A DNA stretch of 61,019 bases, filler included, from Stramenopiles sp. TOSAG23-3 (Eukaryota), in NCBI GenBank assembly GCA_900128585.1. It is 16 parts of 16 records of this genome, joined end to end, with 100 filler letters (N's around TTAATTAATTAA, not from the genome) between each part and the next. Parts side by side here need not be neighbours in the genome. Positions count along the whole stretch, not along the records: positions 53,504 to 57,214 come from LT644110.1; 15 more parts are not named here. One strand, written 5' to 3'. The notes beneath the pieces are model-generated. The model saw only the letters and a program-made list of their open reading frames with translations, was not told where the DNA came from and made no database searches. The translations under genes and the position numbers were made by a program. This document shows, piece after piece, positions 3,554-57,858 of this stretch (position 1 is the stretch's first letter; each line of letters begins with the position of its first letter).

Positions 3554-3733
3554 TATTTCCTGTGCAAAAGAGAGAGAGTGAGAGAAAAAAAATCCAACGC
3601 TGTAGTTCAATACATTATTCACCTGCAGCTCCAAACAAGATCGTGTGCCTTTTTTCCCTTTATGCTCTTGATCACCATCATTCTTTTTCTTCTGGGAAGA
3701 AAGAAGTAGGAAGTTGTGGGGGGAAGCATAAAA

Positions 3734-23076: not shown

Positions 23077-24206
23077 TTACTCGGTCAATTCGATCGTCGC
23101 ATCTACCCCGCATCCTACTAGCGAGCCTGTTCTTAACTGTGATTCTCCCATCAATTTCGACATCGCCAGGCATTTCGTCTTCACTTGCCGGCAATAGACT
23201 TTCCAGCTGTCAGACTTCCATCGACCGAACTTCATAATTTCTGCGTCACTCGCGCCTCCTTCCCACATCATAGTGGCTCCTCCAATCCTGCCGGAGTGTG
23301 TGCCGTATGAATTGCTCGCAATTCCTATCCTTTCCAGGGACCTTTTCAGAAATTTCCGGTATTCATCTTTAGGCATATCGAAGACTTTCTCGTCGTTGTG
23401 AAAGGTTCCCTCCATTTCCTTCACTCTTCTCCATGCTTTCGCCAGTTCGATTGGGTCCCAACTGCCCCCTCTACTGTTTCTATGGGGTCGTCGCTGGCAC
23501 AGCACTACATACTCTGGGAGGCCTTCATTGAATCTGGCTGTCTTCGTATTCCTCAGTGTCAATGTCATGATCAGGACGGCGTCTGGGCTCAAATTCCGGT
23601 ACCCGGGGGTTCTCAGGACCTCTATTTTCACTTCTTTCCATTTCAAGTTCATTACTTCTGAAATGCGCAACAACCCAAAGACGGTGAACAATAGGATGGT
23701 CGCGGCTTGCAGCCCTTCCCTGTTTCTCACATCGATCGCTCTCGTGGCTTCCATCTCATCTATCATGGACAAGAAAATTGGCATTTTTCTCTTCTTTCCT
23801 GAACCAAATTGTTTCTTTATCCGTTGCATCATTTCCTCCAAAGTTACCGTGGGATTCCACTCCTCTCTTGCTTCTTTGGTTGCTCGTACTAGTGCCGCTA
23901 GGTACGCGTAGAAAGAGTCTGCCGAGGTCATTGCTAATTTCCCAGCATTCGCTCCGCTCAGAACTCTCCGCTCAGTGTTCCACTGCATCCAATCTGCTAA
24001 TCTCGCGGTCATGGCCTCTCGGTCTTGGAGGCTGCGTCCGAAACTCACATACGTATCCAGCCTGTATTCTCTACAGAAATTCCGCCAATTTTTCACTCCT
24101 GTAGCTGTCGTTTTCCTTGTGTTCACTGCGTACCCGTGTTTGTAGTTATCTCTACGACGGCGTTCTGCCAGTTCCTCTCGTCGGATTTCTTGAGGTAACA
24201 CCTCTC
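23077..24206 (-). CDS. Tyrosine recombinase (YR integrase)
   Basis: GLLRISE (R), TKT (K), HSGRIGGAT (HxxR), GRWKS..VY (W, Y); overlaps the RT ORF end in the -1 frame. Confidence 0.92.
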
Positions 24207-26219
24207 CTGTTTAAAATTCGGTATTTGGTTAGTTATCGTTTTGAAATCTTCTAAGTCTCCTCTGCTAAGTGCGTCTGCCAGGCGGTTGTCTTTTGAAGAG
24301 ATGTATTCGACTCTCGTTCTGCTCTTGTTCTTCGTCTTCCAGAACTTTAGCATCGTACCTGCTTCTACCATTGCTTTTACAATCAGTCTTATTATGACGG
24401 CCAGGTCCACGTCTTTAGCTCGTCCTTTCTTCAGGGCGCTCGTGACACTGTTGTTATCGCATCGCAATGTCAGGTTTATTTTTCTATGACAAAGTGACTT
24501 CCCAAACAACGCTATTAACGCGAAGAGTCCTAACCCTTCCTTTATGTGTATTTTCAGATCTTTCTCAGATTCTTTCCACACTCCATAAGCGTAACCCTTC
24601 ATGCACACCGCTCCCCACCCAATGCTCCCTGACGCATCTGAAGCTGGGGCTATCGTGCCTTTCGCTAAATTGAAACCTTCTTTTGGCACGTCCTCCCATT
24701 TATCTCTCAACAAAGCTTGGCGACCATTCCAGTTTTCAAACTGGTATATTATTTCGTTCCAGTCATGCCTTATGTCATCTAGCATCTTAATTTTCATTCC
24801 TGCTTTCATGCCGCTCTTTCTTCTCTTGACGCTACCTCTTTTCGTTCTCCTCATGTGATCGTCTGTCATTGCACGTATCATGCTCCACGTTTTCGTCAGG
24901 AACATTCTTATTTGTGGGATTGCTGTTGTCGTCCAATTTATTACTCCTGTTGTCGACTCCCAATCGCGCAAACTTCTCTTGAATCCTTTTGTCATAAACG
25001 ATTTCATTTCATCCACGATCTCCGCAACCCTCGGTTTCGGGATCCCGACTGTTAAGTTGGTGAAATCGTACCATAACCCCAGTATTGTCAACGTGCTGCT
25101 TCCTTTCGCTCCGTTCGGGTTGTCTTCTAAAAATTTCTGTTCTTGTCTTGGAATTTTCCATCGCTTGAAGAGGGCGAGGGCTTCTTGGACTGCCCTCTCA
25201 ATTACGCTTTCGTGTGCCACGATGATCAGGTCATCGAAGTACATCGCCGCACGCGCACCCCATTCATCGAACTTCGTTTTCGTCACGAGATATGTGATTA
25301 TCAATAGTGGCAACCGTAGGAAATTATAGACTGAAGTCTTCAATCCAAACGGCCACCTCTTGTGATAAGCGCTTTTTCCTGCTACCCGAAAGCACAGTGC
25401 CCACCAGTCCGCCGGGTGTGTGCATAACGTCCTGAACGCTGATTTTATGTCTATCTTCACGCCTTTAATCCCTTTTGGGTCCAATCCTTCGCGAACGCAC
25501 CAGTCGTGGACCTCCCATATGTTCGAATGAACGCGCTCCCCTTGTGGGAGGTCCAGGCTTCGGAACTCCCCGGTCTCTTCGTTTATTGATAGTCCATCCC
25601 GACCTCGTGCCGAGAAGTCGCTTATTGTTCTGCAATCGTATGGGTCGCCATTTTCTTTTGCCTTTCTGTCCGTTCGCGCTTTCGGGATCGCTCCCTGCTT
25701 TGTCTCCCGGTACACTTCCAAGCTGTCGTCTCGCAGCGCGACTCGGTCTGCTGCTAGTTCTTCGTCGAACTTTTTCCGGACCTTTTCCTTCGCGTTTTCC
25801 GTCATAACATAATTGGACTTAATCTCGACTGTCTCGAACGGTAGTTCGAAGTTGCATGGCCCTCCCGACTTGATATATTGAACAAATTGTCCATCGCAAT
25901 ACGTCGGCATGTCTTGTCTTATCCTGTCGGCGTCTAAGGTGTTATTCGTGCTCGGTCTTTCGTCCAGCTCTGCCTTGTATGGGTGCCCCCATGTCTTGCC
26001 TGCGTTCAGCCTATCTCTAATTGTGACAAAGTCCGCTGAGGGGATATCGATCGTGTTAAGGTCGCCGAAATCCAACGATCTATATACGACTCTTCCTTGT
26101 TCCAAACTCAGTTGGCCCGGTTCAATATTCATCCGTGCACCTATTTCCCTGGCCTGTGCTAGGATGCCCCCGTCCAAGGTTACGTGTGGCTCGTACTCGG
26201 CGCGTGTCTCTGCTGCGAG
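24123..26219 (-). CDS. pol: Reverse transcriptase - RNase H
   Basis: KIDIKSAFR, WPFGL, YFDD (25230-25241), ILGL; RNase H motifs SDAS, HIKE, CDN, NRLADALSR. Confidence 0.93.
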   Translation of the reverse strand, partial: LAAETRAEYEPHVTLDGGILAQAREIGARMNIEPGQLSLEQGRVVYRSLDFGDLNTIDIPSADFVTIRDRLNAGKTWGHPYKAELDERPSTNNTLDADRIRQDMPTYCDGQFVQYIKSGGPCNFELPFETVEIKSNYVMTENAKEKVRKKFDEELAADRVALRDDSLEVYRETKQGAIPKARTDRKAKENGDPYDCRTISDFSARGRDGLSINEETGEFRSLDLPQGERVHSNIWEVHDWCVREGLDPKGIKGVKIDIKSAFRTLCTHPADWWALCFRVAGKSAYHKRWPFGLKTSVYNFLRLPLLIITYLVTKTKFDEWGARAAMYFDDLIIVAHESVIERAVQEALALFKRWKIPRQEQKFLEDNPNGAKGSSTLTILGLWYDFTNLTVGIPKPRVAEIVDEMKSFMTKGFKRSLRDWESTTGVINWTTTAIPQIRMFLTKTWSMIRAMTDDHMRRTKRGSVKRRKSGMKAGMKIKMLDDIRHDWNEIIYQFENWNGRQALLRDKWEDVPKEGFNLAKGTIAPASDASGSIGWGAVCMKGYAYGVWKESEKDLKIHIKEGLGLFALIALFGKSLCHRKINLTLRCDNNSVTSALKKGRAKDVDLAVIIRLIVKAMVEAGTMLKFWKTKNKSRTRVEYISSKDNRLADALSRGDLEDFKTITNQIPNFKQERCYLKKSDERNWQNAVVEITTNTGTQ

Positions 26220-27071: not shown

Positions 27072-28742
27072 TCATTTCGACGATGCCCAGCCCCACGCCG
27101 TCGGCGGCGCAACGAACTTTTCCTCGTCCTCTCTAACGTTGCTGTCGTGCCGCGCCTTTCTTCCTTTGGCACCGTCCTTCCCTCCTTTCTTGCGTGGACC
27201 CTTCGTTTTCGAAGAGATACCTGCAAGGTCGTACGCAAGATCAAACAGGGGAGAACTGTTTGCATTTGACTTTCGCAAATAGTCCCGCTTGCCACTGGAG
27301 ACTGGGCGCTGCCTGCTCCGCCGAGACAGTGGGCGCTGTGTAGCCCCGTTTCCGTGGTCTTTGTTGCCCCCTTTCTTCCCAGCATAAACTTCGGTGCGCG
27401 GCAACGGCACATCGAGTTTAGGCTCGGGGCTGGGCTTTATTTCTTTGATGGGAGACGGTATGATATCGCCGGAGGTCATGCCTAGCGCCAACGACGACGT
27501 TGTGCTCTTTTTCCCTGCACCAGCTCCGCTTCCAGCGTTTTTTTTAGGAGAATCTTTGGATTTGAGAGAAAAAGAAGACACGGGCGCCGCGGCGCTTTCC
27601 CCAGTGTATTGCTTCCGAGGAATCCCAGTTTGCGACCGTTTCTTCTTTTGTACATCGAAAATGTTTGTCGATTCTGTGATCTGGGTGTCCCCAGACCCCC
27701 ATCCTTCTTTTGCCTTTGGACGATGGTTGGCCGAAGAAATCCCGTGCAGGGTGTGCCCTTCCGTATCGCTCTTTTCTCCACGGACCCGTCTCCGACTGGG
27801 CGGCCTGGTATACTTCAAGTACGGAGAATTCCTTCCCGAGTCTGTGCCGAACGGGCTGGTGCTCATGCCCATCGGGCTCGTCAAGCTCGACGGGCTGGCT
27901 TTGGGTGGCCGTGCGAACGGTGTATCCTTCTTTACCATGTTTTCCAGGTCTATTGGCGTCGGGCTAGCCATGGGAGATCCGAAATCTATCTCTCCCATCT
28001 CTTTGTTCAACAGGGACACATCGATGCTGACGTTACGCTTCGAACTCCTGGACATTGGCCTTGATTGCCTCATTGAATCAAACGAGGACGAGTGGCTCCG
28101 GGACAAAGGCTTTCCGCCATCTTTTGACCCCTGCTGATCGTCGGGTGAAGGCAGCAGGGTCGTCGTGGACGTGCTCCCCTCGCGCCGGTTATATTCCTTT
28201 CGGGCCACGTACCGAGAGCTAGTCTTCTTCTGGCGGGGGGGTCCCCGGCCGGCGGCCAACCGGTCAAACACGGACTCGCTCTCCCGAGGCTTTCTTCCAT
28301 TGCTGCGATGGTCGGGAAAGTACGCATCCTTTCGCCTTCTATCTAAATCCTTCTCCCTGGAGCCTATGGCGGCCTGGTCCCTCCGAGTGTGCCGCTGACG
28401 GGACCAGCGGCGGGACGGTGGGTCCTGCTCGTGCTTAAACCGGCGTGGCGGGGCCCTTCCCGCTACCAAACGGTCCAGCACGGATTCGTCGGTTCTACTT
28501 TGCTGATGGTTCGATTGCCCATACAAAAACTCGTTTATTTCCGACGGCTTCGGTTTCCTCCGCCGGCTATGCGCGGGGGCTGTCCCGGCTTCCCGACGTC
28601 CACCAAGCATCCCCGAGGGAGCCCCCCCCCGTCGACTCCGACGTATCATACTCCAGCCCTTCGCGAAGAACCAGTCCCAGTCTTTCCCCGCCCGTTTAAA
28701 ATAGGACAGCGTTTGGTTGCTGTACGAATGATTGCTATACAA
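27072..28742 (-). CDS. Disordered Ser/Arg/Lys-rich hypothetical protein with two SV(L/F)DRL repeats
   Basis: 556-aa ORF in GC-rich sequence; ESVLDRLVAGRAPPR and ESVFDRLAAGRGPPR. Start uncertain. Confidence 0.6.
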   Translation of the reverse strand: MYSNHSYSNQTLSYFKRAGKDWDWFFAKGWSMIRRSRRGGAPSGMLGGRREAGTAPAHSRRRKPKPSEINEFLYGQSNHQQSRTDESVLDRLVAGRAPPRRFKHEQDPPSRRWSRQRHTRRDQAAIGSREKDLDRRRKDAYFPDHRSNGRKPRESESVFDRLAAGRGPPRQKKTSSRYVARKEYNRREGSTSTTTLLPSPDDQQGSKDGGKPLSRSHSSSFDSMRQSRPMSRSSKRNVSIDVSLLNKEMGEIDFGSPMASPTPIDLENMVKKDTPFARPPKASPSSLTSPMGMSTSPFGTDSGRNSPYLKYTRPPSRRRVRGEKSDTEGHTLHGISSANHRPKAKEGWGSGDTQITESTNIFDVQKKKRSQTGIPRKQYTGESAAAPVSSFSLKSKDSPKKNAGSGAGAGKKSTTSSLALGMTSGDIIPSPIKEIKPSPEPKLDVPLPRTEVYAGKKGGNKDHGNGATQRPLSRRSRQRPVSSGKRDYLRKSNANSSPLFDLAYDLAGISSKTKGPRKKGGKDGAKGRKARHDSNVREDEEKFVAPPTAWGWASSK

Positions 28743-35466: not shown

Positions 35467-38049
35467 TTATAATTCGTACGATTCAAAGAAACGGTACGCG
35501 TTCAATTCCACGGCCGAGAATGCGGCAGCCAATTCTTTTCTGCTGGCTGGCGTGCTCCCAGGAGCAGATTCTGAACCGTCGCCGCCCAGCATTTCCAGGC
35601 TTTTTATCATGGACTTGATAAAATCGTCCATGATCCGGAGCTTCAAAGGGCACGGCAGGGTCGGCGCTAATTTCCACCCATCCGGAAGGATGTCTTCTAT
35701 CGTACGCAGCATGCCCAGCGTGTTTCGTCCATGCTGAGTCGACCAAGTAACGCCATCGACGCACGATTCCAGAACACCGTGAGAATAGGGGCCCTTCCCT
35801 TGAAGAAGCGCCCGCAGGTCCTGTTCCACGGCAGCCAACCGGGCGTCTTTGGGCGAACGATCCGAACTTGACCAATGCGCGCTTTCATTCGCGAGCTTCG
35901 ACAGGCGAAGGTGGATGCCACGGTTCGCGTCCGGGTGCTTCCTCAGCGTCTCGTCGTTTGCTAAAATCAAGTACCGCGCCAGGAACGGTGCTTCGAGCAA
36001 AGACGCAGACTGCTCGCCGGTCTCTTCGTGGGTGACGCTCAAGAAGTTGGGGCGCCTGCACATGGACAGGTCGAACCGTTTAATTTCTCGAAAATGGTTA
36101 CGAGGTTCCTCGCCTCTGTGGCGAACTTCCCAGCAAGCAATGGCCACGAAGTGCTTGGCGCCGGACACGTACACTTCCGTCTTTATCTTTATCGAAGCGT
36201 TGTCGTCGTTTCTTTGAACTCGGCTCGTGGACAGCCTCGTTTCAACACGGCCCGCATCGTTCTTGGGGTTGCCTTTGGAATCGTCGGGCACAACGAACAC
36301 CGACGGGCTGTAAACCGTAGCCTTAGGGTCGTAGTCCCCCGAAACGGAAAATGTACAGGTCAGAATGATGCACCCGGGAGTGAAGCTGTGGCACAAATCC
36401 GTGCACGACACGTTCACCGCATCCTTTGCACTCCCCGCTTTCGCCCCCTTGCTATTTCTCTCTGAAATGATCCGCTTGAACTGCTTCACTTTCAACGTTT
36501 GATCGTCGAACGTCGCCTTCGCCGCCGCCATCGATTTTTCGTAGCTTTTTTGCCGCTCGTTTAGGGCTTTGGTGATGCGCTGAAAATGCTCGTTCTTAAG
36601 TCTATTCGCAGCCGCGTCTTTCCCCGATGCTCCGGCCTGCTGAGCCGCTCGCCCCGTTCCGTTTCCCGCCTCTTTGGACGCCCTCTGCTTGGCCCCCTTC
36701 TTCTTCCTCTTTTTCGAACCGGGCTTGCCTGGGTTGGCCTTGGGGGACTGGACGATCGCCGTTCCAGAGCTCGACAGGGACATCCGCCTCGCCAACGAAA
36801 CCAGGGGAAGGTCCATGTCGTCCCGAAAAATAACCAACTGCTCTCCGCCGTCGCACAGGTAGTCGTCTGCGGCGAAGCCCGTGGCGTTTTCGTACGATTC
36901 CAGTAAGACCAAAGACAACGTGCTTTGCTCGCACGAGGTTTGGAACAGCACACAGTCCCTTTTGGTGTCAATGTGCGCGGCAACAATAACGTCTGGAGAA
37001 TAACCCTGAAATGTGCACAAATTACACGCGTTTCCTGAAAGCTTCACCGAGGACGACGCAATGCCCTGGTGGATCCGCATCAAATAAAACGCGGTGCCTC
37101 CCTCCGGGACTGCCTCTATGCCCTCTTCAAACCCATCGCGGGACTCCACGCACGCAAAAACTTCAAAATTGTTCACGGCGCTGAAAAGTGGGTTGCCCGA
37201 CGGACCCACAAAAGAGCCGTTTCCCCCGTAGCCGCTTAAATTGTAGCACAAGCACGTCGTGTCCTTTGCGTACTTTGGCGGGAAGAGGTAGGGGGCTGCG
37301 TCGGCGTCTAACTCTGAACGCTGGGACAGGATGCCCACACAAAACTCCCCGTCCAGTACAAAAATGCTTATCGGGGCCAGCCGCGAGCTGGCTGCGGTCT
37401 CCACCAGTCGAAACGATTCAACGTCCGGCAAACAATACTCGTGCCCTTTCCACGAATCAGACGGTGCCCCATCGCTGGCATAGACGGGGAACTCCCCCCT
37501 GTCCGCCGCGGCGTTCAAATTGCTCTCCACCCCAGTGGCAGAAATGGCAAGAACTTGCTGCGACCCGGCACCGCCCCCCTCTGCGTGCCCAGCCACGTGA
37601 ACGACCACCACGGGCCCGTCTACCAGGTCGGTGCGCACGCCCGGCGCGCGGTTGTCTCGACCAAGAAACGAAGATCCGACGGTTACGTCAAACTCTTCCG
37701 CAAACACGCAATTTTTGCTGTTGTACTCTGTGATCGTAACGAACCGAACGTGTTTGGACCCCTTTTCGATGCCATCCCGTGACAGGACCACGCCCAGGCA
37801 CGGGATGCCCAGCGTGTAGTCTTCGACGCAACGAAAGTCCACGATGTCCCATTCGGAATGCTCCGGCAGCTTTTTGCTGTCCAACGGCGTTAGTGCAAAC
37901 ACAATTGGAGGCTTCGACAAGAAACGATCCGGAGTCTTTTTTCCCGTGACAAACTTTGCACCGCGTAAGAACAGCTTGTCCGTCCCATCGACACAACTAC
38001 AAATCAACTGAAAGAGTTTGCCAGTGCCCCCCGTAACTGTTCGAGCCAT
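35467..38049 (-). CDS. FANCB-like protein (Fanconi anaemia core complex)
   Basis: LVDGPVVV and DDYLCDGGEQLVIF resemble recalled FANCB motifs (LDGP; DDFxGxGxEQVLL); beta-rich N-part, coiled coil, then beta-sandwich-like region. Confidence 0.55.
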   Translation of the reverse strand: MARTVTGGTGKLFQLICSCVDGTDKLFLRGAKFVTGKKTPDRFLSKPPIVFALTPLDSKKLPEHSEWDIVDFRCVEDYTLGIPCLGVVLSRDGIEKGSKHVRFVTITEYNSKNCVFAEEFDVTVGSSFLGRDNRAPGVRTDLVDGPVVVVHVAGHAEGGGAGSQQVLAISATGVESNLNAAADRGEFPVYASDGAPSDSWKGHEYCLPDVESFRLVETAASSRLAPISIFVLDGEFCVGILSQRSELDADAAPYLFPPKYAKDTTCLCYNLSGYGGNGSFVGPSGNPLFSAVNNFEVFACVESRDGFEEGIEAVPEGGTAFYLMRIHQGIASSSVKLSGNACNLCTFQGYSPDVIVAAHIDTKRDCVLFQTSCEQSTLSLVLLESYENATGFAADDYLCDGGEQLVIFRDDMDLPLVSLARRMSLSSSGTAIVQSPKANPGKPGSKKRKKKGAKQRASKEAGNGTGRAAQQAGASGKDAAANRLKNEHFQRITKALNERQKSYEKSMAAAKATFDDQTLKVKQFKRIISERNSKGAKAGSAKDAVNVSCTDLCHSFTPGCIILTCTFSVSGDYDPKATVYSPSVFVVPDDSKGNPKNDAGRVETRLSTSRVQRNDDNASIKIKTEVYVSGAKHFVAIACWEVRHRGEEPRNHFREIKRFDLSMCRRPNFLSVTHEETGEQSASLLEAPFLARYLILANDETLRKHPDANRGIHLRLSKLANESAHWSSSDRSPKDARLAAVEQDLRALLQGKGPYSHGVLESCVDGVTWSTQHGRNTLGMLRTIEDILPDGWKLAPTLPCPLKLRIMDDFIKSMIKSLEMLGGDGSESAPGSTPASRKELAAAFSAVELNAYRFFESYEL

Positions 38050-38246
38050 GAAATCCACAAACCCAAAGCCTGCAAAAGGCACAGAAGGCAAACTGCCACT
38101 ACGACTTTCTTCATGGAGAACATAATTATAGAAGTATGACGGACNNNNNNNNNNNNNNNNNNNNNNNNNNNNNNNNNNNNNNNNNNNNTTAATTAATTAA
38201 NNNNNNNNNNNNNNNNNNNNNNNNNNNNNNNNNNNNNNNNNNNNTT

Positions 38247-45776: not shown

Positions 45777-46649
45777 NNNNNNNNNNNNNNNNNNNNNNNN
45801 NNNNNNNNNNNNNNNNNNNNTTAATTAATTAANNNNNNNNNNNNNNNNNNNNNNNNNNNNNNNNNNNNNNNNNNNNCTTTTTCTTCTTCTTCCTCTTCTT
45901 CTTTCTTTTTCTTCCTCTTCTTTCTTCTTTCTTCTTCTTTGTTCTTCTTCTTCTTTGTTCTTCTTCTTCTTTCTTTTTTTTCTTTTTTTCTTGCCCTTCT
46001 TCGTTGATAACCACCGCAGAATGTCATGGTGCTTCGTGTCATCATCTTATACATAGAGATAATATAGAATAATCATTGAATAGCATTGTAATAAGGAGAT
46101 TTGTGGTGTCTTCATTATAGTATATGTTATTTCTATGTTATTTCTATATTTATTCTGTCTTCTTCTATAACGATCTCTTCTTCTCTTTTCACTTTCTTCT
46201 ATCTTTTTTTCTTCGCAACATTCATTATTTAATTATTCTTTTAACAGCTACACAGTATTAATACAGAGTACATAACACCCCCCATCGTCGACGACAGAAG
46301 AAGAAATAATAATAATAATTTTATTTTTTAAAATTTATTATTTATCCTCTTCTCCTCTGTTGTTGTTGTTCCAAGTAGTATAGTAGTTGGTGGTAGTAAT
46401 AAATGATCCGGTCTGTCCTTCCTTCAATTTGCGCGGCTACAAAAAAAGCATTTCTTTCTCACATTCTTTCTTTCTAATCCTACATTGAAATGAAAAGAAC
46501 GTTTGCACAGGGATAACGACACACATCATTACAGTAACACAATTCTTCACCGGCGCGTTAAATATATTTGCATTTGATTACTTCTTTATTTGTATTTGTT
46601 TGACCATACTCTTCCAGTGGTTTGCACAGACCCCCTGCTTCGGGTCAAA

Positions 46650-49591
46650 ATGTCAGCAGAGTTAAAGCTAAGTACACGGGGGTTGTCCAAGTCGTGGAAA
46701 GTTCAAAAGTCTCACACGTGCTGCTATACTGGGGGAAAAGCGGTCCTTACGAAAGACGAAAACAGTATCGTTTGCCTTCGGAACGGAGATGTTGCGGTCG
46801 TTGACATTTTGACAGGCCAGGTGTCATCGTCGTTGCAGGACGGCGTGGACGACGTGGTCAAAGAGAACTTTACGACCTTTGCGGTGCACCCAAGCGGGCA
46901 CGAAATTGTCACTGCAAGCAACAACTGCTTGCTCCGCCACTGGGTCCACGACAACAGTTCACCGAAAGAGGACGGGGACAACGTCAAGTGGGAGTGCAAG
47001 AGAAGCTTTAAATCAAACCACACGTTGCCAATCATGTGCATGGACTACGACGCGAGCGGCACGTTGGTTGCGACCGGCAGCAACGACCAAAGCACTCGCG
47101 TTTGGGACGTTCCTCACGGCTACTGCACTCACAGCTTCAAGAACCAAGGGGGCAACATCAGCGTGGTGCGTTTTCACCCAGATGGAAACCGGCTGCAGCT
47201 GTTTACGGGTACGGATGGCAACAGGTCCCAAAAGTGCATCGTGCGCGCGTTCGATTTGAACACTCAGAAAACTGTGGCCGAGTTTGAGGATCACATGAGC
47301 GAAGTCACCGCCATTGTGTTTTCTACGGACGGGTGGACCATGTGCACAGGAAGTCGAGACAAAGTACTGAACTTTTACGACACAAGACGGTGGAAGCTGC
47401 TGAAAACAGCGCCAATCTACGAGAGCGTGTCGGGCCTCGCAAACGTTCCACTAGATGGGCTCGGCCCAGATGCAAGGGATAAAAAGTACACCATGTGCGT
47501 CGCGTCGGGGGGGACGAAAGGGGACGTGCGCATATGGGGGTTCCGGGAAGCAGGGAAGGCAACCAAGAGGGGGGGTGCGGCGGCGGCTGCAACTTGCACC
47601 TTGGTAGGAACTTCGGAGCCGCAGCAAGGGCATGGGAACACCTCCAATGGCGCGAAAAGCAGCGATGATAGCGACAAGGGTAAAGCATACGGGATCACTG
47701 CCCTGTTGTGTCGCAGGTCGAAAAGCCAAATCGTTAGCATTACGGAGGAGCACTTTTTTCACTTTTGGCGATCCGGCGACGTACCCTTGAAGCCGATGCA
47801 GAAATGCAAACAAATTGTAGGGTACAACGATGAAATTATAGATTTAAAATTTATCCCAACGTCATCGGGGGTTCCTGGGGAGGCACCGGAGACCAAACGA
47901 TCGGACCGCATCGTCATGGCCGCGAACAGCGACCAGCTGCGGTCGTTTCATTTGCAGACGTTCGACTGCGAGCTTATGTACGGTCACAAGGACATTGTCC
48001 TGGCGTGCGACGTGAGCCCGGATGGGTTATGGTTGGCATCGGTGTCCAAAGACCAGACGGTGCGGGTGTGGGATCTAGTTAGTTACAAATCCTCGGTGTG
48101 TGTTGCACTTGGAGTAGGCCACACAGAAGCCATCGGGGCAGTCTGTTTCGGGAAACGCCCGTCCACTTACAACCATCGAAGCTCGCACACGTCCGCGTGG
48201 TTGTTCACGGGAAGCAAGGACAAGACGCTGAAATCTTGGGATTTGGGAGCCATCATTCGAAGCAGAAAGAATGTCGATGGGTCCCTTACCGTCTCAGGGG
48301 GCACTTCCCCCATCGTCATTGACACCTTGGAAGTGCGCGACAACAAGCGGGCGCACACAAAGGATATCAATGCCCTCGCTATTTCGCCGAACGATACTCT
48401 CTTGGCAAGCGCTTCCCAAGACAAGACAATAGTAATTTGGAACCCGCACACGCTGGAAGACAAAGGGACGCTTCGGGGGCACAAACGCGGTGTGTGGTCG
48501 GTGGAGTTTTCCCCCGTCGATAAGACGTGCGTGTCTGCAGGGGGCGATCGGTTAGTAAAGCTTTGGAGTTTGTCGGACTACACTTGCATCAAGACGTTTG
48601 AGGGGCACATGGCGTCGGTGCTCCGTTGTTACTTTTTGAGCAATGGCATGCAGGTCATGTCGAGCGGCGCCGACGGGCTCGTCAAGCTTTGGACAATCAA
48701 AAACAACGAATGCACTAATTCGTTTGACGCGCACGAAGACAAGGTATGGGCGCTTGGGGTCCGTTCCTGGGTAGACAGCGGCGATATTTCAAGTAGTAGA
48801 GACGCCCAGCCTATGGAAATGCATTCCCAAATGGTCAGTGGGGGTGGGGACTCCGTGATGAATGTCTGGGAGGATTGCACTATACATGAAGCAGAGGAGG
48901 AGATAAAAAAGCGGGAAGAGCGCATCATCAAGCAGCAGGAGTTAGCCAATCACGTTGCCCGGAAGGAATATCGTCGGGCAATTATCTTGTGCCTTGAGTT
49001 GGACTTCCCGTTTAAACTGCGAGGAATCTTAGAGGAATTGCTGTTGGGCGAAGCTCCGAATGCAAAAATCACTTTGAGAGGGAAATCCATCCTGAAAAAC
49101 AAGGACACCGTAGACACAGAGAAGGGGCACCAAATAGTCGAATCGATCGTGGCAGCGTTGAGCGACACGCACATTCTGCAGTGGCTGAAATACGTTCGGC
49201 AGTGGAACACAAGTGGGCGACACAGTGTTTTGGCGCAGCGATGCCTGGCCATGGTTCTTAAAAACTTTTTCCCAGACCATTTAATGAGCCTTTCCCCAGA
49301 CGTTAAGAAAATTTTTGAAGGGATCGTAGCGTATAGCGATCGGCACTTCAAGCGGATCAACCGGTTGGTCAAACGTTCGTACTTGTTGGACCACACATTG
49401 GCATCGATGGACATGCTCATGGCCCCCGCGGAAGAGATAACAGAGATAGACCCTATTTCTTCAGACTCCGACTCGTCATCATCCTCCGAAAGCGATTCCG
49501 GGGACGATGAAGTGGGATATGGCGACGTTACTGCGAACACAGGCAGCAGCAGTAGCGATTCCTCCAGCAGCAACGACGAGGAAGAAGAAGA
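46650..49591 (+). CDS. TBL3: UTP13/TBL3, WD40 SSU processome component; 3'-truncated in an acidic tail
   Basis: YTGG start, many WD repeats, GYNDEIID, LRGHKRGVWSVEFS, C-terminal WNT..AQ..YSDRHFKRI Utp13 domain. Confidence 0.93.
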
Positions 49592-50482
49592 NNNNNNNNN
49601 NNNNNNNNNNNNNNNNNNNNNNNNNNNNNNNNNNNTTAATTAATTAANNNNNNNNNNNNNNNNNNNNNNNNNNNNNNNNNNNNNNNNNNNNCCTTTACTA
49701 TGTTCAAACAGATGCAAATACCCATGCATTTCCTGCTCGTTTATTTTTCCCAAAGATTCTTCTATCGATCTTCTTCGAGATATAATTATTAGAGAAGAAG
49801 AATTTAATAAATAAATAATAATAAAAAAAAAAAAATAATAATAATATATAATAATATTGCACTCTTCTCTTCTATCTCCGTCCTTCCTTTTTTACCTATA
49901 AACATTAATATACTAATTTATTATATTAAGTACAGGGATCTCTTATATCGGGAGGATTAGATAGAACGACTCCTCGTAGTGTATTTAGTACACTACTAAT
50001 AATAATAATTGAATAATGAATAAGCGGTAGTCATACCGGTAAATATTAATATAGTGATAGGATAGGATACGAGGTATTTATATAATAAAATAAAAAAAAA
50101 GGAAAAGAGATCCTCGTACTAATAATAATGTCCAATATAAACACGACGACGACGAACGAACGACGACTGACTCAATTATTATTAGCGGTACGACGAGGAA
50201 TAAAAAAAAGAAGAGTCAATCTATCTCTTGGTATCCTGATACGCACAACAAGACCCCCCACACCCAGTACGGTACCGGTAGTTGTAATGGTAATAATAAA
50301 CAATAACTACTGTAGTAATTCTTACTTTTGGTGGAAGGGTTTATTTTGCAACAATCTTCTGTTTGCTTAGTCAATACGTTGAACATAAGAATAATTCATG
50401 ACCATAATCATAAATTAAATTATTCATTTGTTGAAAAGGTTACAGAAGTACAATAGACACAAGCAAAACGAAGAGAAGTTGC

Positions 50483-53056: not shown

Positions 53057-53961
53057 TGGATATTTTTATTTATTAGACTATTAAATATTATACTTATAAC
53101 TTATATTTAGGTAATATTATTATTGTACTTTTTTTCCACAAGCGGTAGAAGCAAGAATGTAGAATATTGAATTTGTAATAGTTACCTATATAAATTAATA
53201 GAGTGAAAAAAAAAACACTTCTCTGCTATTTCTATGTATTAGTTAAAAATACCCTGATGGTGTGTTCCTGTACTGATGATATTTCCTATTTTTGAGGTGT
53301 GATATAAAAACTAACTTTTCACCGATTATTATTAAAAGTACCTCCGGCACGATGACCCTGCTGGTTTTAAGGGAATTATTTGTCTATCAAAATATGCATG
53401 TTCNNNNNNNNNNNNNNNNNNNNNNNNNNNNNNNNNNNNNNNNNNNNTTAATTAATTAANNNNNNNNNNNNNNNNNNNNNNNNNNNNNNNNNNNNNNNNN
53501 NNNTCAACTTCCTCATCCGATATCTCACTCAGAGATAAATCAATCCTTGTACCATCTTCCAAGCAGCGGCTTAATTGTTGTTTAGGTGCTCGTTGTCTGT
53601 CTTGTAAATTGGTCAAGGGGTTGTTATCTGTGGGTTGAGATATTGGCTGTTATTTATAAGTAATTAAATTTAGCTTCCTCATATTATATTTTAACAAGAA
53701 AAATTGGCTGTTATTTAAAGTAATTAAAATTAAAGAAAAAAAGAAGGTGTCAGTTCAAGAACAATGTCTCCTCCTATTGCAGATCCTCTCCAAGTTCTGG
53801 TCAAGATTCCAATTGATTGGTCTTAAAAGTACACCCTCATATTATATTAGATTGTTGGATATTTTGTTGTAGTCTAAAGACGTTACATAGTCTTACTGAA
53901 ATCTAAAGTGATAGGGGAAGAACAATCGAGCGAGTTAAAAAATAATCTCTACAAGGGTTGT

Positions 53962-56700
53962 TTAGTGGAAAATTTCCGAGACAATTTCCAGCGACTTTGG
54001 ACAACCTTTCAAAATAACTTTGGCTTCCTCCACAGCTTTGGGGCCAGAAACTTTTCCATTTTTGTACTCTTTCATCAAAGCCATAAACTTCTTCATGGTC
54101 TTGTCGTCGCTGACCTCTGACTTGATTATCTTTACGTAAGACATTGACCCACTGCGCTTCAGTGCCTTTGTCTTTTCCGCCGGGGATACCCCGTCTTCTT
54201 TCTCTACCACTTCGTCCCCAGAAATTCCCGTCTTGGAATCCCCGTTGGGATCCCCGCTGTCCTCTTTGCTCAACGGTGCCCAAGTCTTGACACTTGTTTT
54301 CATCGACGTAGTGGGCGATCCCATCCCGTTCCCCGTGACGAGCATGGGGTGAACTTTTTTACTGCCTTTCGATTGCCTTTTGGTGCCGCCCTCGTGCCCA
54401 GGAAGCTCGCTCAGGTACTCTTCGCTCTCGTAACGGTCGTCCACCCCATCGTTGTCTTCGTCGTAGTTGCAAAGAATTTTCGACATTCCTATGTGTAACC
54501 TACGCATGGACTTGTGCAATTCCCCGTGGGCCTCGGGGGCGTCTTTCCCCATTCCGATTTTACTGCATTTCAGGATCGCGGGAGTTCCCCCACCCAAAAC
54601 AAACACGGTAAACAAAACAATGAGGACGGTGGTTGACATCATCGTGTGCCTCAAGTGCGTCGGTATCCCTGCACACAACCCTATCGCAATGGCTCCCCTT
54701 AGTCCAGACCACCACATAATTGTGGCATGAGTCCATGGAATTTTTCGTTCGGGCGAACGGCACAAATTCAGTATTGCCACGAGGGGGAAAACCGATACGA
54801 ACCGGGCGACAAGAATGATGACGAGAACAACGACGGTGAAGTTCCAACTGATTGCCTTGTAGTTCACGACGGTGACCAACCCCGTCAACAGGAAAATCAT
54901 CATGTCTGCTAAAGATGCCAGGGTGTTGGTCAAAATGTGTGCCCTTTGATGGCCCTCCTCGGACATGTTCGGTTTAACAAAAATGGCGGCCATCGTCCCA
55001 TGCAACAGCGACGCGACGATGCCACTGAAGTGAAACATTTCTGCAATCACAAAGGACGAGTAGGCTAGGGTAAGGAAGACGATGATTTCCAACACCGCCG
55101 TGTGCTTAAAAAATGTGTACTTGAACACAAGCGCGTGGAAGGAGCCAATTCCAAACCCAACCGCTATGGAGCCGAACAGGAGTGCGATGAACTTAAACAC
55201 TGCGTCCTCAACCGTAAAGTGGGACGTTATGCCACCGTAACGGGTGAACTTGGCAAAGGACTTATAGATCACGATCGACACGGCGTCGTTCAAAAGCGAC
55301 TCGCCGAAGACCAGGACCTCGATGTTCGGGTCGACCTTCAAGGCACTGAAAGTGGCCAGCGTGGCCACAGGGTCGACCGCCGAAATCAAGGCCGCGAAAG
55401 CGAAGCTTTCCCAAATGTTCATTTCTGAAGGGTAGTCGCCCCCGATTCCCCGAGCTCCATAGAGCGTCATCCCGACTATAAGCGTGCTCATGAGCGTCCC
55501 AAAGAGGGCAAAGATGATGATTTCAGACAAATTGGCCCCAAAATTCCCGTGCTGCATGGAGAATCCAGAGTAGAATATAATTGGCGGGAGCAGAACCAAA
55601 GTCAACATGTCTGGGTCGAAGGAAAGGTCCTGCGCGGCCGACGGGCCCAGCACGATCAGGGACCCCATTCCGTACAGCATTCCGAGGATGATAAATATTC
55701 CGGACTCTGGCAACCAGAGAACGTGCTTCAAATGCAAGTAGTTTCCTAGCCATGCCCCGGTGAACAACAGCCCCACGCGAAAGATGGTATACCTCGCACT
55801 CGACACCAGCGTGTCTTCTTTGTTGGAGCAGAACTGGTAGATGGCGTAATTGTGCCCGTCGTACATTCCGAGGTCTTGAACCCCTAGCCCGCTCTCTTCG
55901 TCGTCCACCACCTCCATGCTGAAGGACCCAGTGGTGCCCGGGATACTGATTTCCACTATGTTGTCTTCCACAAACTTTTTTGCGCTCTTTTTCTCATCCC
56001 CTTGGTCGCACAAGATTTTAAAAAGTATGTTCTCGGGGGGGGCGCTGTCATCGTCTTGGCAACTTCTCCACAGTCCAATCGCCAGCGAGGAGTGAATCTT
56101 TAAGGAATAACCCACTGCATTATTTTTTGAACCGATGGCCTCGTGCCTCAGGAATGTCGCCTGCGCCGGGGAGCACGATGCAGCGCAGAACACTCGCTGC
56201 CACGCTTCCTCGCACGCAGAGCATTTCTGAAAGAGCCCTATCAGAAAGCCCTGTGTGGCCTCAAAGGCGCTCTTCAAATCGTCCGAAACGGCATTGTCCG
56301 CGCAGCACGACATGTCGTCCTTGAAATGGTTGCAAATACCGGTCTTTTTCACACCCGGGGGCTGGGGCGACGTGCACTCGGTGGTGTTGCATCGGTGGTA
56401 CAGGTCGCACGTCGACGACGAACCGTCTAAATCGCCGAGCATCGTGGAGTTGCGACTTGCGAAGCAGCTCAAGCAGCTAGGATCGGCGCACGATTGCTCC
56501 ATGCCCCCCTTTTCACAGCACGGTCTACATGTCTCAACGTCCGCAATGACGCCGAGGTCTGCGCACGCCAAACACTCCCGCCCGGGCAAACAGCCAAGCG
56601 TTCTAACTACCGGGGTCCCAAGTATAGAGGCAGACCTCGCCGACGAGACCATCGACGCGAACAGCAATAAGCAAAGCGGGAGCTTGATGGACGGCGCCAT
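53962..56700 (-). CDS. Na+/H+ exchanger (CPA1, NHE8/NHX-like) with N-terminal Cys-rich domain and C-terminal PAH-like domain
   Basis: LPES, LLPPIIFYSG, ISAVDPVATL, VFGESLLNDAVSIV, SGIV, WSGLRGAIA. Signal peptide after ATG 56700. Confidence 0.93.
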   Translation of the reverse strand: MAPSIKLPLCLLLFASMVSSARSASILGTPVVRTLGCLPGRECLACADLGVIADVETCRPCCEKGGMEQSCADPSCLSCFASRNSTMLGDLDGSSSTCDLYHRCNTTECTSPQPPGVKKTGICNHFKDDMSCCADNAVSDDLKSAFEATQGFLIGLFQKCSACEEAWQRVFCAASCSPAQATFLRHEAIGSKNNAVGYSLKIHSSLAIGLWRSCQDDDSAPPENILFKILCDQGDEKKSAKKFVEDNIVEISIPGTTGSFSMEVVDDEESGLGVQDLGMYDGHNYAIYQFCSNKEDTLVSSARYTIFRVGLLFTGAWLGNYLHLKHVLWLPESGIFIILGMLYGMGSLIVLGPSAAQDLSFDPDMLTLVLLPPIIFYSGFSMQHGNFGANLSEIIIFALFGTLMSTLIVGMTLYGARGIGGDYPSEMNIWESFAFAALISAVDPVATLATFSALKVDPNIEVLVFGESLLNDAVSIVIYKSFAKFTRYGGITSHFTVEDAVFKFIALLFGSIAVGFGIGSFHALVFKYTFFKHTAVLEIIVFLTLAYSSFVIAEMFHFSGIVASLLHGTMAAIFVKPNMSEEGHQRAHILTNTLASLADMMIFLLTGLVTVVNYKAISWNFTVVVLVIILVARFVSVFPLVAILNLCRSPERKIPWTHATIMWWSGLRGAIAIGLCAGIPTHLRHTMMSTTVLIVLFTVFVLGGGTPAILKCSKIGMGKDAPEAHGELHKSMRRLHIGMSKILCNYDEDNDGVDDRYESEEYLSELPGHEGGTKRQSKGSKKVHPMLVTGNGMGSPTTSMKTSVKTWAPLSKEDSGDPNGDSKTGISGDEVVEKEDGVSPAEKTKALKRSGSMSYVKIIKSEVSDDKTMKKFMALMKEYKNGKVSGPKAVEEAKVILKGCPKSLEIVSEIFH

Positions 56701-57314
56701 TTCAAACAAAGCAACCGTTCCCTGCGAGCGAACACGTATCCCAACAATAAACGATAGGGGAAGAGATAATAGGATTTCAATTCAAACCTCATTTACATTT
56801 CACTTTCCTTCGATCAATTATATACATGCTTCCCTCATAATATCAATTATTTAAAAGAATGAACTTGTTGAACTTATATAATTAATATTCAAAAAAAAAA
56901 AAAATCGTTTTTTCATTTTTTTTTTTTCTTCTTCTCGTTTGTTCGTTGTTGTTGGGCTGAAGTTTATAATACTGTACTATTTGTATATTTTAGGTTGTGT
57001 TGTAGCGATGGAAATACACGTATGTAAACGACCTTTTTTAAGCAATCCGATGTATCAGATGAACCAATTTGGTGTATCGTATATTGATGGTATTTAAAAT
57101 ATGGTCAATTCGTTACGGTCATTCGAGTAACGTCAATTGTATACTTTGGGACAATCTGAAAAGAAACGACTCGTCGTGACTACTCGTCTATTTTTAGACC
57201 AATCGGTTTCAAAANNNNNNNNNNNNNNNNNNNNNNNNNNNNNNNNNNNNNNNNNNNNTTAATTAATTAANNNNNNNNNNNNNNNNNNNNNNNNNNNNNN
57301 NNNNNNNNNNNNNN

Positions 57315-57858
57315 CTACACGATGAAGCTCCTGGGGGCGACGCGCTTTTTGGCAACCACCGCCGTAGGCTCCCTTCGGGAGAATGTTGGCCCCGGCGCGA
57401 TCGTCAGCATCACCGACCACATCAACATGCAAGGCTGCAACCCGCTGATCGGCCCTAACGACCCGGACATGGGACCGCGGTTCCCAAGCTTGATGGATGC
57501 GTATAGTTCTAGGTTGCGGAAAGTCATGCACGAGAGTGCTGCGGCGAACGGCATAACGCTGCACGACGGGGTCTACCTGGCAACGACCGGGCCCAGCTTT
57601 GAAACCCCGGCCGAGATCCGTGCGTTCAAAACTTTGGGCGCCGACGTCGTCGGGATGTCCCTGGTTCCAGAAATCATCGCCGCCCGGCATTGTGGGTTGG
57701 AGTGCGCCGCACTCTCCATCGTCGTCAACTTGGCCAGTGGGTTGACGTCCGAGCACATAACGCACGAGGAAACCATCCATTATTCAGGGCAAGCATCGGC
57801 AAACGTTGCTAAACTAGCGTTGGAGTACGTTAGTCGTGTAAGCAAACTTGATGATTAA
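57315..57858 (+). CDS. PNP: Purine nucleoside phosphorylase (trimeric PNP/XapA type), C-terminal part
   Basis: DHIN..NPLIGPN..GPRF, GPSFETPAEI, GADVVGMS..PE..ARHCG, HEE. Confidence 0.92.

What the first reader, a model, noticed from the sequence alone, without database searches (positions are those of the whole stretch)
53962..56700. Na+/H+ exchanger fused to an NPC1-N/folate-receptor-like luminal domain: candidate ligand-regulated exchanger
Seen: signal peptide, then ~280 aa of Cys-rich sequence containing C....MSCC...CSACEEAWQRVFCAASCSPAQATF...LAIGLWRSC (~55990-56340), then a complete CPA1 exchanger, all in one frame. Known: the sterol-binding NPC1 N-terminal domain and folate-receptor family share the pattern CC...CPxC..N...FC...CSP.Q..F...A...Y.AC; characterised NHE/NHX proteins lack such an ectodomain. 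Inference: an endosomal or phagosomal exchanger coupling sterol or vitamin sensing to pH and ion control.
Basis: partly seen in the sequence, partly recalled or inferred. Interest (0 to 1): 0.78.

Follow-up and report, generated by a model that had tools for sequence, protein, structure and literature searches.

The report
NPC1-like luminal domain fused to Na+/H+ exchanger
A marine microbial eukaryote encodes a sodium/proton exchanger whose outward-facing end carries a cysteine-rich domain related to the sterol-binding head of the Niemann-Pick C1 protein, an arrangement shared by a whole clade of protist exchangers and not described in the papers I could search.

Summary
Window 53962-56700 (minus strand) is one uninterrupted 912-codon ORF. 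It encodes a signal peptide, a ~270-residue domain with 22 cysteines, a 13-helix CPA1 exchanger and a 200-residue tail.

- **Domain identity:** the N-domain passes Pfam NPC1_N (37.8 bits, cutoff 27). A family profile hits 15 NPC1/NPC1L1/NCR1 chains in the PDB (E 1e-6 to 3e-5). Its AlphaFold model matches the NPC1 N-terminal domain best (Z 11.1). Folate-receptor-type folds score lower (Z 7-8).
- **Exchanger:** it keeps the ND motif and is closest to organellar NHE6/9 and to proteins named NHE8.
- **Fusion:** it needs no splicing. Contigs from RNA libraries tile it, and one crosses the domain junction. Fourteen other proteins (29-64% identical overall) share it. With nine N-truncated fragments they form a 23-row clade holding no complete member without the domain.
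- **Novelty:** no fused member carries an NCBI or UniProt name, and nine literature searches found no description.
- **Function:** the proposed ligand regulation is inference only.

I rate it a new variant of known kinds, of moderate to high interest.

The parts
53962..56700 (-). Whole coding sequence, 912 codons plus stop, single exon
   Evidence: ORF list and translation. No joints in contigs from four RNA libraries. A metagenome contig, L001, is 100% identical over residues 1-627.
56632..56700 (-). Signal-peptide-like N-terminus, residues 1-23 (MAPSIKLPLCLLLFASMVSSARS)
   Evidence: Hydrophobic segment 1-28 in the Kyte-Doolittle scan. The cleavage site is judged by eye and was not computed.
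55813..56631 (-). Luminal/extracellular Cys-rich domain, residues 24-296, NPC1-N-terminal-domain-like fold
   Evidence: 22 Cys, 20 of them invariant in the 4-protein alignment A1. AlphaFold model: pLDDT 74.8, pTM 0.68. VIA-align: model 35-294 on NPC1 NTD 23-238, Z 11.1, rmsd 4.8, 160 residues aligned. The Foldseek top 12 are all NPC1/NPC1L1/NCR1.
55969..56337 (-). Core of the domain matched by Pfam NPC1_N, residues 122-244; holds the CC...CxxC...FC...CSPxQ..F...LW.SC.DDD motif
   Evidence: Pfam 37.8 bits, E 2.2e-9. The family profile aligns these Cys with those of human NPC1, yeast NCR1 and NPC1L1.
54565..55812 (-). CPA1 Na+(K+)/H+ exchanger membrane domain, residues 297-712, 13 predicted helices
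   Evidence: Pfam Na_H_Exchanger 196.9 bits. PDB: NHE6 E 1e-59, NHE9 1.8e-54, NHE1 4e-46, NHE3 3.5e-42. The full-length model has pLDDT 80-93 across this part and 13 helices, two of them broken.
55285..55290 (-). Asn471-Asp472, the 'ND' motif of electroneutral CPA1 exchangers, within FGESLLNDAVSIV
   Evidence: D472 is invariant in 16 sequences. The motif aligns with FGESVLNDAVAIV of human NHE6. Its functional meaning is recalled knowledge.
53965..54564 (-). Cytosolic C-terminal tail, residues 713-912, ending in a helical bundle (853-911)
   Evidence: Full-length model. Weak PAH hit, E 0.065, below the cutoff.
54427..54462 (-). Conserved acidic loop DEDNDGVDDRYE (residues 747-758) in the tail, resembling a calcium-binding DxDxDG loop
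   Evidence: Invariant in A1. D751 and Y762 are nearly invariant in 16 sequences. No EF-hand family was reported by Pfam at E<=10. The likeness to a calcium-binding loop is by eye and recall.

Best explanation
Shown: this is a real gene for an organellar-type (NHE8/NHE6/9-like) CPA1 cation/proton exchanger. It has an odd number (13) of membrane helices. That places its signal-peptide-led N-terminal domain in the organelle lumen or outside the cell, and its tail in the cytosol. The N-terminal domain is homologous to the sterol-binding N-terminal domain of NPC1/NPC1L1/NCR1. These belong to the pocket-forming branch of the Frizzled-CRD superfamily, together with folate and riboflavin binders.

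Inferred: the domain binds a small hydrophobic molecule, with a sterol as the nearest guess. Because only about 10 conserved residues join it to helix 1, ligand occupancy is passed on to the exchanger. It would then change the exchanger's activity or its sorting, and so tie compartment pH and cation content to lipid or nutrient status. The confidence given below is for this full statement including the inferred mechanism. The architecture alone I hold at about 0.95.
For: Architecture: one ORF, with Pfam NPC1_N and Na_H_Exchanger both above their cutoffs.

Homology of the N-domain: a profile of 11 family members hits 15 distinct NPC1/NPC1L1/NCR1 chains at E 1.1e-6 to 2.9e-5, against folate receptors at 0.056-2.2. 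Foldseek's top 12 are all NPC1-type (best E 8.7e-5). VIA-align gives Z 11.1/10.4/10.4 for NPC1, NPC1L1 and NCR1 NTDs, then Juno 7.7, riboflavin-binding protein 7.4, HHIP-N 7.0 and Frizzled-type CRDs 3-5.

Exchanger integrity: the ND motif, the TM5 Asp (SAVDPVATLA) and both Arg (ARFVSVFPL, GLRGAIA) align with NHE6. The model has 13 helices.

Selection on the fusion: 14 other proteins carry both parts. In a tree of 121 exchanger domains they form one clade of 23 rows with 9 N-truncated fragments (SH-like support 96), and no complete member lacks the domain. 20 of 22 Cys are invariant among four proteins that are 45-51% identical in this region.

Short, ordered link to helix 1: pLDDT is 88-94 for residues 261-290, and the helix starts at 297. 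C291 is nearly invariant.

Expression: contigs of four RNA-labelled libraries tile most of the ORF at 95% identity or more, without joints. Record 16 of the oligo-dT run X11 covers 55684-55902, across the domain/helix-1 junction.

Precedent: per a passage of PMC3809587, NPC1, riboflavin-binding protein and folate receptor bury small ligands in the core of this fold, and the Smoothened CRD binds oxysterols. A neighbouring exchanger clade carries ANF-receptor ligand-binding domains instead (P0043, P0044, P0058). This suggests that N-terminal sensor-type modules on these exchangers are a recurring theme.
Against: Identity to NPC1 NTDs is only 15-19%, and Foldseek TM-scores are below 0.5 (0.37-0.44 per target) with rmsd 7-8 A. 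The Pfam match covers only the central half of the NPC1_N profile. Of the three close relatives, two fall just under the Pfam cutoff and one has no hit.

In the HMM alignment, NPC1 Gln79 falls on a weakly conserved alanine-consensus column. Gln79 is one of two residues said to hydrogen-bond the sterol hydroxyl (passage of PMC5438648). The alignment of that helix is unreliable because its length differs.

Some members of this superfamily bind proteins rather than small molecules (Juno, HHIP-N appear).

The full-length model gives lower confidence to the N-domain and a pTM of only 0.54, so no domain-to-exchanger interface is established.

RNA-library contigs can contain DNA (warning).
Confidence: 0.4

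Rival explanations
1. The domain is a structural cap or partner-binding module, not a small-molecule sensor. It would stabilise, dimerise, traffic or shield the luminal face of the exchanger, or bind a protein partner.
For: The very short, conserved, well-ordered link to helix 1 fits a rigid cap. Fold relatives Juno and HHIP-N (Z 7.7 and 7.0) are named as protein binders in their entry titles. From recall, not from a call: the Frizzled-like CRD of FAM155A/Mid1 sits on the NALCN/Cch1 channels as an auxiliary subunit. PMC4256011 (passage) lists Mid1 and FAM155 as carriers of this domain. The family-specific conserved residues (W167, W211, the DDD after C214) are not NPC1 residues.
Against: The nearest relatives by sequence and fold are the pocket-forming sterol binders, well above the protein-binding members. 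No partner is known.
Confidence: 0.3
2. The protein is chiefly a sterol-handling device. The NPC1-like head would accept sterol in an acidic compartment (for example from an NPC2-like carrier) and deliver it to the membrane. The exchanger part would serve as anchor and local pH control, rather than the head regulating the exchanger.
For: The best matches are NPC1, NPC1L1 and NCR1 heads, whose titles include sterol-bound forms. The exchanger is of the organellar type.
Against: There is no Patched/sterol-sensing membrane domain and no middle or C-terminal luminal domain, which NPC1 uses to pass sterol on (role recalled). Pfam finds only Na_H_Exchanger after the head. The exchanger part is the more conserved half: 59-64% overall identity against 45-51% in the head. 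It keeps its ion-binding residues, so transport is clearly under selection. The short link leaves little reach for hand-off.
Confidence: 0.15
3. The fusion is an artefact, arising from a chimeric assembly or from two genes read as one.
For: The window is an assembled record with masked stretches. Individual RNA contigs are short, at most 430 bases on this gene.
Against: It is one uninterrupted frame with no stop. An independent metagenome contig is 100% identical from upstream of the start through residue 627. An RNA-library contig crosses the junction. Fourteen other proteins from four sources share the same order of parts, down to 29% overall identity.
Confidence: 0.02

Closest known systems
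N-terminal domain of NPC1 / NPC1L1 / yeast NCR1 (Pfam NPC1_N, PF16414)
   Same: Signal-peptide-led luminal Cys-rich helical domain at the N-terminus of a polytopic membrane protein. The Pfam hit is above the cutoff, the profile reaches PDB chains at E 1e-6 and the fold gives Z 10-11 over the whole domain. The CC, CxxC, FC, CSPxQ and final C align.
   Different: Identity is only 15-19%. There are 22 Cys rather than the 18 recalled for NPC1. The domain is followed by a cation/proton exchanger instead of a Patched-type sterol-sensing transporter. The link to helix 1 is short and ordered, rather than the flexible linker recalled for NPC1. Sterol-contact residues could not be confirmed.
Folate receptor / riboflavin-binding protein / Juno (Pfam Folate_rec, PF03024)
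   Same: Same superfamily and core fold (Z 7.4-7.7). Two family members pass the Folate_rec cutoff (P0006 and P0021).
   Different: The window protein shows no Folate_rec hit at E<=10. PDB profile E-values are 0.056-5.3. Those proteins are GPI-anchored or secreted, not fused to transporters (recalled).
Organellar Na+(K+)/H+ exchangers NHE8 (SLC9A8), NHE6, NHE9
   Same: The membrane domain is 35-41% identical to animal proteins named NHE8. PDB hits: NHE6 E 1e-59, NHE9 E 1.8e-54. The ND motif and charged residues are conserved, and the model shows 13 helices.
   Different: The animal proteins named NHE8 in the list are 542-734 residues and carry Na_H_Exchanger as their only precomputed Pfam family, so they lack a large N-terminal luminal domain. 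The tail has its own conserved acidic loop and helical end.
Smoothened and Frizzled (CRD on a membrane protein, sterol- or lipid-controlled)
   Same: A domain of the same superfamily sits N-terminal to a polytopic membrane domain. In Smoothened it binds oxysterols (PMC3809587 abstract and passages). This is the closest working analogy for ligand control through such a domain.
   Different: They belong to the groove-type CRD branch (Z about 3). The membrane part is a 7TM receptor, not a transporter.
SLC9C1 sperm exchanger, and the ANF-receptor-fused exchangers seen here (P0043, P0044, P0058)
   Same: CPA1 exchangers fused to sensor-type domains. SLC9C1 appears among the PDB hits, and the ANF_receptor + Na_H_Exchanger proteins form a nearby clade.
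   Different: The added domains of SLC9C1 are C-terminal and cytosolic (recalled). The ANF-receptor fusions use an unrelated fold and are themselves uncharacterised.

Membership tests
Pfam NPC1_N (PF16414) domain | Score above the curated gathering cutoff | tested here: met
   37.8 bits against 27, E 2.2e-9, but only profile positions 42-164 of 244. Close relatives P0004 (25.8 bits) and P0005 (25.6 bits) fall just below, and P0003 has no hit.
Pfam NPC1_N (PF16414) domain | Fold of the solved NPC1/NPC1L1/NCR1 N-terminal domains | tested here: met
   VIA-align Z 11.1, 10.4 and 10.4 with 158-160 residues aligned, model 35-294 on chain 23-238. The Foldseek top 12 are all of this family, although TM per target is only 0.37-0.44 for the three isolated NTD entries (3gkh, 3qnt, 9f40). 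The model itself is of middling confidence (pLDDT 74.8).
Pfam NPC1_N (PF16414) domain | Conserved cysteine framework (CC, CxxC, FC, CSP, distal C) | tested here: met
   These Cys align in the HMM alignments to human NPC1, NCR1 and NPC1L1. Disulfide pairing itself was not determined.
Pfam NPC1_N (PF16414) domain | Sterol-contacting residues (Asn41, Gln79 of human NPC1; passage of PMC5438648) | tested here: inconclusive
   Gln79 falls on a weakly conserved Ala-consensus column, but that helix differs in length by 3-5 residues, so the alignment is unreliable. Asn41 lies outside the aligned stretch.
NPC1 protein family (whole protein) | Patched-type / sterol-sensing membrane domain after the head | tested here: not met
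   Pfam finds Na_H_Exchanger and no Patched or sterol-sensing family. The protein is therefore not an NPC1; it only carries an NPC1-like head.
Pfam Folate_rec (PF03024) | Score above the curated cutoff (29.8 bits) | tested here: not met
   No Folate_rec row for the window protein at E<=10. Relatives P0006 (38.2 bits) and P0021 (47.1 bits) do pass.
CPA1 Na+/H+ exchanger (PF00999) | Full-length match above the cutoff | tested here: met
   196.9 bits against 26.2, profile positions 9-374 of 375.
CPA1 Na+/H+ exchanger (PF00999) | ND motif and conserved TM Asp and Arg residues (roles recalled) | tested here: met
   FGESLLNDAV, SAVDPVATLA, ARFVSVFPL and GLRGAIA align with the matching NHE6 segments. 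D472 is invariant in 16 sequences; D443, R633 and R668 are nearly invariant.
CPA1 Na+/H+ exchanger (PF00999) | 13-helix NHE topology with two discontinuous helices | tested here: met
   The DSSP helices of the full-length model number 13, with breaks at 439/445 and 665/670. This is a prediction, not a structure.
NHE8 (SLC9A8) subfamily | Groups with NHE8 rather than with NHE6/7/9 or plasma-membrane NHEs | tested here: inconclusive
   The best named relatives are all called NHE8. The tree held no NHE6/7/9 or NHE1-5 rows, apart from one long-branch row (P0111) named 'Na(+)/H(+) exchanger beta-like', whose placement is unsure. The PDB has no NHE8 among the hits, where NHE6 is best.
CPA1 Na+/H+ exchanger (PF00999) | Cation/proton exchange activity | not testable with these tools
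   Needs a transport assay.

The most novel reading that the evidence does not exclude
This clade would be a ligand-gated secondary transporter. Occupancy of the NPC1-like luminal head by a sterol, or another hydrophobic nutrient, would allosterically switch an organellar Na+(K+)/H+ exchanger, so that compartment pH is set directly by luminal lipid content. Together with the neighbouring ANF-receptor-fused clade, this would reveal a class of receptor-exchangers in marine protists that has no counterpart among the studied animal, plant or yeast NHE/NHX proteins.
Probability: 0.25. Interest if true: 0.85.

Novelty: new variant of a known kind. Interest (0 to 1): 0.6.

Why it matters
All studied NHE/NHX exchangers are regulated from the cytosolic side, through their tails (recalled). 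A conserved luminal domain of a ligand-binding superfamily, rigidly joined to helix 1, would be the first case of possible control from the luminal or outer face. It would also link two fields that meet in lysosome biology: organelle pH control and NPC1-type sterol handling.

The family gives a compact, single-exon, experimentally tractable protein for asking whether a secondary transporter can be gated by a lipid-binding ectodomain. It also shows that the NPC1 head is a mobile module that occurs outside Patched-type proteins.

The protein occurs in several marine metatranscriptome studies, so it is expressed in the sea. The organism was not identified.

Tried and rejected
**Complex prediction.** I sent the N-domain (25-300) against the membrane domain (301-720). 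The result was 'no answer', score 0.00, controls not run. It is not evidence either way.

- No whole genome is held for this window. I therefore could not ask whether the organism also has a canonical NPC1, an NPC2 or other exchangers, nor which organism it is.
- Pei & Grishin 2012 (PMC3537238), which catalogued architectures of this domain superfamily, is not held and may mention this fusion. Kwon et al. 2009 (PMC2739658) is not held either.

**Protein Atlas.** The N-domain gave NPC1_N clusters at scores of only 0.77-0.80, which is a lead only. The whole protein gave plain exchanger clusters at 0.83 and no fused cluster. Neither settles anything.

**Further homolog and locus searches.**
- A profile search for longer proteins returned only the four close proteins and one fungal NPC1. 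It missed known members, so it says little about range.
Repeating it with A1 gave one identical contig and seven weak exchanger pieces, and no new fused members.

**Literature.** Searches found no paper describing an NPC1_N- or folate-receptor-like domain on a Na+/H+ exchanger. These searches cover open-access PMC and bioRxiv only.

**The high-depth piece at 53737-53834.** An Rfam scan of 53504-54000 found nothing. The sequence that continues the RNA contigs beyond 53834 is not in the window.

**Readings I rejected.**
- Plastid targeting: the residue after the likely cleavage site is Arg, not the aromatic or Leu residue recalled for plastid-bound proteins of algae with secondary plastids. This is by eye only.
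- P0010-P0013 as free-standing secreted N-domain proteins: P0010 equals the first ~215 residues of the 791-residue fused P0025 and then diverges. P0011-P0013 look alike and I read them the same way, as truncated gene models.
Full report
**1. What is in the sequence**

On the minus strand, 56700 down to 53962 is a single open frame of 912 codons from the first ATG. The tool's TTG start three codons upstream is only the mechanical ORF start. The regularly spaced N runs of the window flank the gene (53404-53503 and 57215-57314) and do not enter it.

The protein begins with a hydrophobic, signal-peptide-like stretch (residues 1-23). Residues 24-300 hold 22 cysteines and two N-glycosylation sequons.

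Pfam reports two families above their curated cutoffs. Na_H_Exchanger covers residues 321-711 (196.9 bits, E 6.2e-58). NPC1_N covers residues 122-244 (37.8 bits against 27, E 2.2e-9) and matches profile positions 42-164 of 244. Folate_rec was not reported for this protein even at E<=10.

**2. What the N-terminal domain is**

- *Sequence searches.* The single sequence against PDB chains finds only the NPC1 N-terminal domain, weakly (3gkh, E 0.022). A profile built from 11 N-domain sequences of the family (A3) finds 22 distinct chains at E<=10. Fifteen are NPC1, NPC1L1 or yeast NCR1 (E 1.1e-6 to 2.9e-5). Five are folate receptors (0.056-2.2). One is Juno (5.3) and one a hydrophobin (3.8). In those alignments the CC pair, the CxxC, the FC, the CSPxQ..F and the distal C all line up.
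- *Fold.* An AlphaFold model of residues 1-313, made with an 18-row alignment, has mean pLDDT 74.8 and pTM 0.68.
  - Foldseek against the PDB puts only NPC1/NPC1L1/NCR1 entries in its top 12 (best E 8.7e-5). TM-scores are modest, 0.37-0.44 per target for the isolated NTD entries, with rmsd 7-8 A. Juno, riboflavin-binding protein and folate receptors follow at E > 0.2.
  - VIA-align, which does not depend on Foldseek, compared 48,161 representative chains. It ranks NPC1 NTD first (Z 11.1, rmsd 4.8 A, 160 residues, model 35-294 on chain 23-238). NPC1L1 and NCR1 NTDs follow (10.4 each), then Juno 7.7, riboflavin-binding protein 7.4 and HHIP-N 7.0. Lower still are the MuSK and ROR2 Frizzled-type CRDs (5.3, 4.6), glypicans (about 4.2), and Frizzled and Smoothened CRDs (about 3).
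- *Superfamily.* This ordering reproduces the published superfamily that joins Frizzled-CRD, NPC1, folate/riboflavin binders and glypicans (passages of PMC4256011 and PMC3809587). It places the new domain on the pocket-forming NPC1 side.

The whole of residues 35-294 is therefore one NPC1-head-like domain, not only the central part that Pfam sees.

**3. What the rest is**

Residues 301-720 match solved exchangers strongly: NHE6 E 1e-59, NHE9 1.8e-54, NHE1 4e-46, NHE3 3.5e-42. Among named database proteins, the best relatives are animal proteins called NHE8, at 35-41% identity over the membrane part.

The sequence segments that hold the ND motif, the TM5 aspartate and two arginines align with those of NHE6. 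They are invariant or nearly so in a 16-sequence family alignment. Their roles in ion binding are recalled knowledge.

The full-length model (pLDDT 71.2, pTM 0.54, and 80-93 across the membrane part) shows 13 helices, two of them broken, as in solved NHEs. With 13 helices and a signal peptide, the Cys-rich head faces the lumen or the outside and the 200-residue tail faces the cytosol.

The head runs almost directly into helix 1. Residues 261-290 are confidently ordered (pLDDT 88-94), C291 is nearly invariant, and the helix starts at 297.

**4. Is the fusion real and conserved?**

*The gene itself.* It needs no splicing. Contigs from four libraries labelled RNA lie on the gene at 95% identity or more, with no joints. 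Together the listed pieces cover most of the ORF. Record 16 of the oligo-dT run X11 spans 55684-55902, from the last part of the head into the first membrane helices. Record 24 of X6 runs from inside the head through the start codon to 56855. The tool warns that such libraries can hold DNA, so this is consistent with transcription but not proof. A metagenome contig is 100% identical from 1.8 kb upstream through residue 627 (L001).

*Relatives.*
- A word-indexed search with the head found three proteins of 891-937 residues that are 45-51% identical in the head and 59-64% overall. 20 of the 22 Cys are invariant among them.
- An exhaustive HMMER search of 1.84 billion cluster representatives with the head found 18 proteins at E<=1e-3.
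- A search with the whole protein listed 120 of 1,862 hits.
- I scored all 138 stored proteins with a head profile and read their sequences. Fourteen proteins besides the window's own carry both head and exchanger: P0003, P0004, P0005, P0008, P0015 (a fragment), P0021, P0023, P0024, P0025, P0026, P0036 (N-truncated), P0041, P0080 and P0082.
- Nine more (P0027-P0035) begin inside the juxtamembrane part and are truncated versions.
- Several short 'head-only' hits look like truncated gene models. P0010 equals the start of P0025 and then diverges.

*Tree.* I built a FastTree tree of 121 exchanger domains, dropping the window's duplicate P0002 and the short fragment P0015. The 14 head-bearing rows (the window's protein and the 13 other carriers kept) and the 9 truncated rows form one clade of 23 (SH-like support 96), with no complete member lacking the head. 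The nearest clade without it includes a Diacronema lutheri protein (P0039). Long branches (P0021, P0041) make the deepest joins uncertain.

*Sources.* All fused proteins come from environmental or EukProt sources. None has an NCBI or UniProt source in the listings.

**5. How it most likely works**

*Shown:* a complete exchanger with intact ion-site residues; an NPC1-type head on the non-cytosolic side, rigidly joined; and conservation of both across a divergent clade.

*Inferred:* the head binds a small hydrophobic ligand, as its nearest relatives do, and thereby influences the exchanger's activity or sorting. I put this at about 0.4.

*Main rival (0.3):* the head is a structural or partner-binding cap.
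- The short link fits this reading.
- Protein-binding members of the fold (Juno, HHIP-N) are a precedent.
- From recall, the CRD-bearing auxiliary subunits of NALCN/Cch1 are another precedent.

*Second rival (0.15):* a sterol hand-off role modelled on NPC1. It is weakened by the absence of any Patched-type domain and by the stronger conservation of the exchanger half.

*Artefact (0.02):* nearly excluded.

The sterol-contact residues named in PMC5438648 (passage) could not be mapped reliably. The attempt to predict a head-to-exchanger interface gave no verdict.

**6. Comparison with the known, and novelty**

The head passes the tests for the NPC1_N domain: score, fold and cysteine framework. 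The protein fails the test for being an NPC1, because it has no Patched or sterol-sensing part. It does not pass Folate_rec, although two relatives do. The exchanger passes the CPA1 tests. Assignment to NHE8 rests on database names only.

Nine literature searches found no description of this architecture. The one paper most likely to list it (Pei & Grishin 2012) could not be read, and InterPro could not be queried.

The protein database's precomputed Pfam lists show both domains for 7 of the 120 listed relatives. Automated annotation has therefore seen the combination, even if nobody has written about it.

I rate it a new variant of known kinds: a new, conserved domain architecture built from two well-known modules. 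The functional reading is attractive but untested.

**7. Limits**

The organism is unidentified, because no genome is held and cluster look-ups were off. Lifestyle-based ideas such as a phagosomal role therefore have no support.

Noticed in passing
P0043, P0044, P0058 (relatives; not in the window): A separate small clade of NHE8-like exchangers (SH-like support 96), about 1,000 residues long, carries an ANF_receptor / periplasmic-binding-protein-type ligand-binding domain (PF01094, PF13458) together with Na_H_Exchanger. This is a second kind of sensor-domain-plus-exchanger fusion in protists.
   Followed up: partly
window 53737-53834 (+ strand coordinates), 130-225 bases beyond the stop codon: A ~100-base piece has very high depth in all four RNA libraries (up to 775 against 3-13 over the gene). 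The contigs continue beyond 53834 with sequence that is not in the window, and the genome has GT at 53835, like a splice donor on the + strand. It could be an exon of a highly expressed gene or a dispersed repeat. There was no Rfam match.
   Followed up: partly
window 54427-54462 (residues 747-758) and 53965-54141 (residues 853-911): The cytosolic tail has an acidic loop, DEDNDGVDDRYE, kept across the family. It looks like a calcium-binding DxDxDG loop by eye, but Pfam reports no EF-hand hit. The close relatives also share a confidently predicted terminal helical bundle with weak, sub-threshold PAH hits.
   Followed up: partly
window, 30 N runs of 44 bases in pairs about every 3,820 bases (first 3734-3777, last 57271-57314): The N runs are regularly spaced, so they look like masking rather than assembly gaps. 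One pair cuts the purine-nucleoside-phosphorylase-like gene next door (ORF 57322-57858, PNP_UDP_1 E 1.2e-40).
   Followed up: no
window 46590-49643, 15329-16981, 21201-22745, 1820-3634, 4104-5807: The neighbouring long ORFs are ordinary eukaryotic genes: a Utp13-type WD40 protein, two RCC1-repeat proteins, a protein kinase and a C2-domain protein. Long intron-free ORFs suggest an intron-poor nuclear genome. Three other long ORFs (35467-38091, 24123-26177, 27072-28742) have no Pfam family.
   Followed up: no
P0080, P0082 (863-866 residues) and P0041 (1,353 residues): In these fused relatives the NPC1-like head lies 340-500 residues from the N-terminus, so a further large, unexamined N-terminal region precedes it. 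In P0041 that region is partly low-complexity.
   Followed up: no
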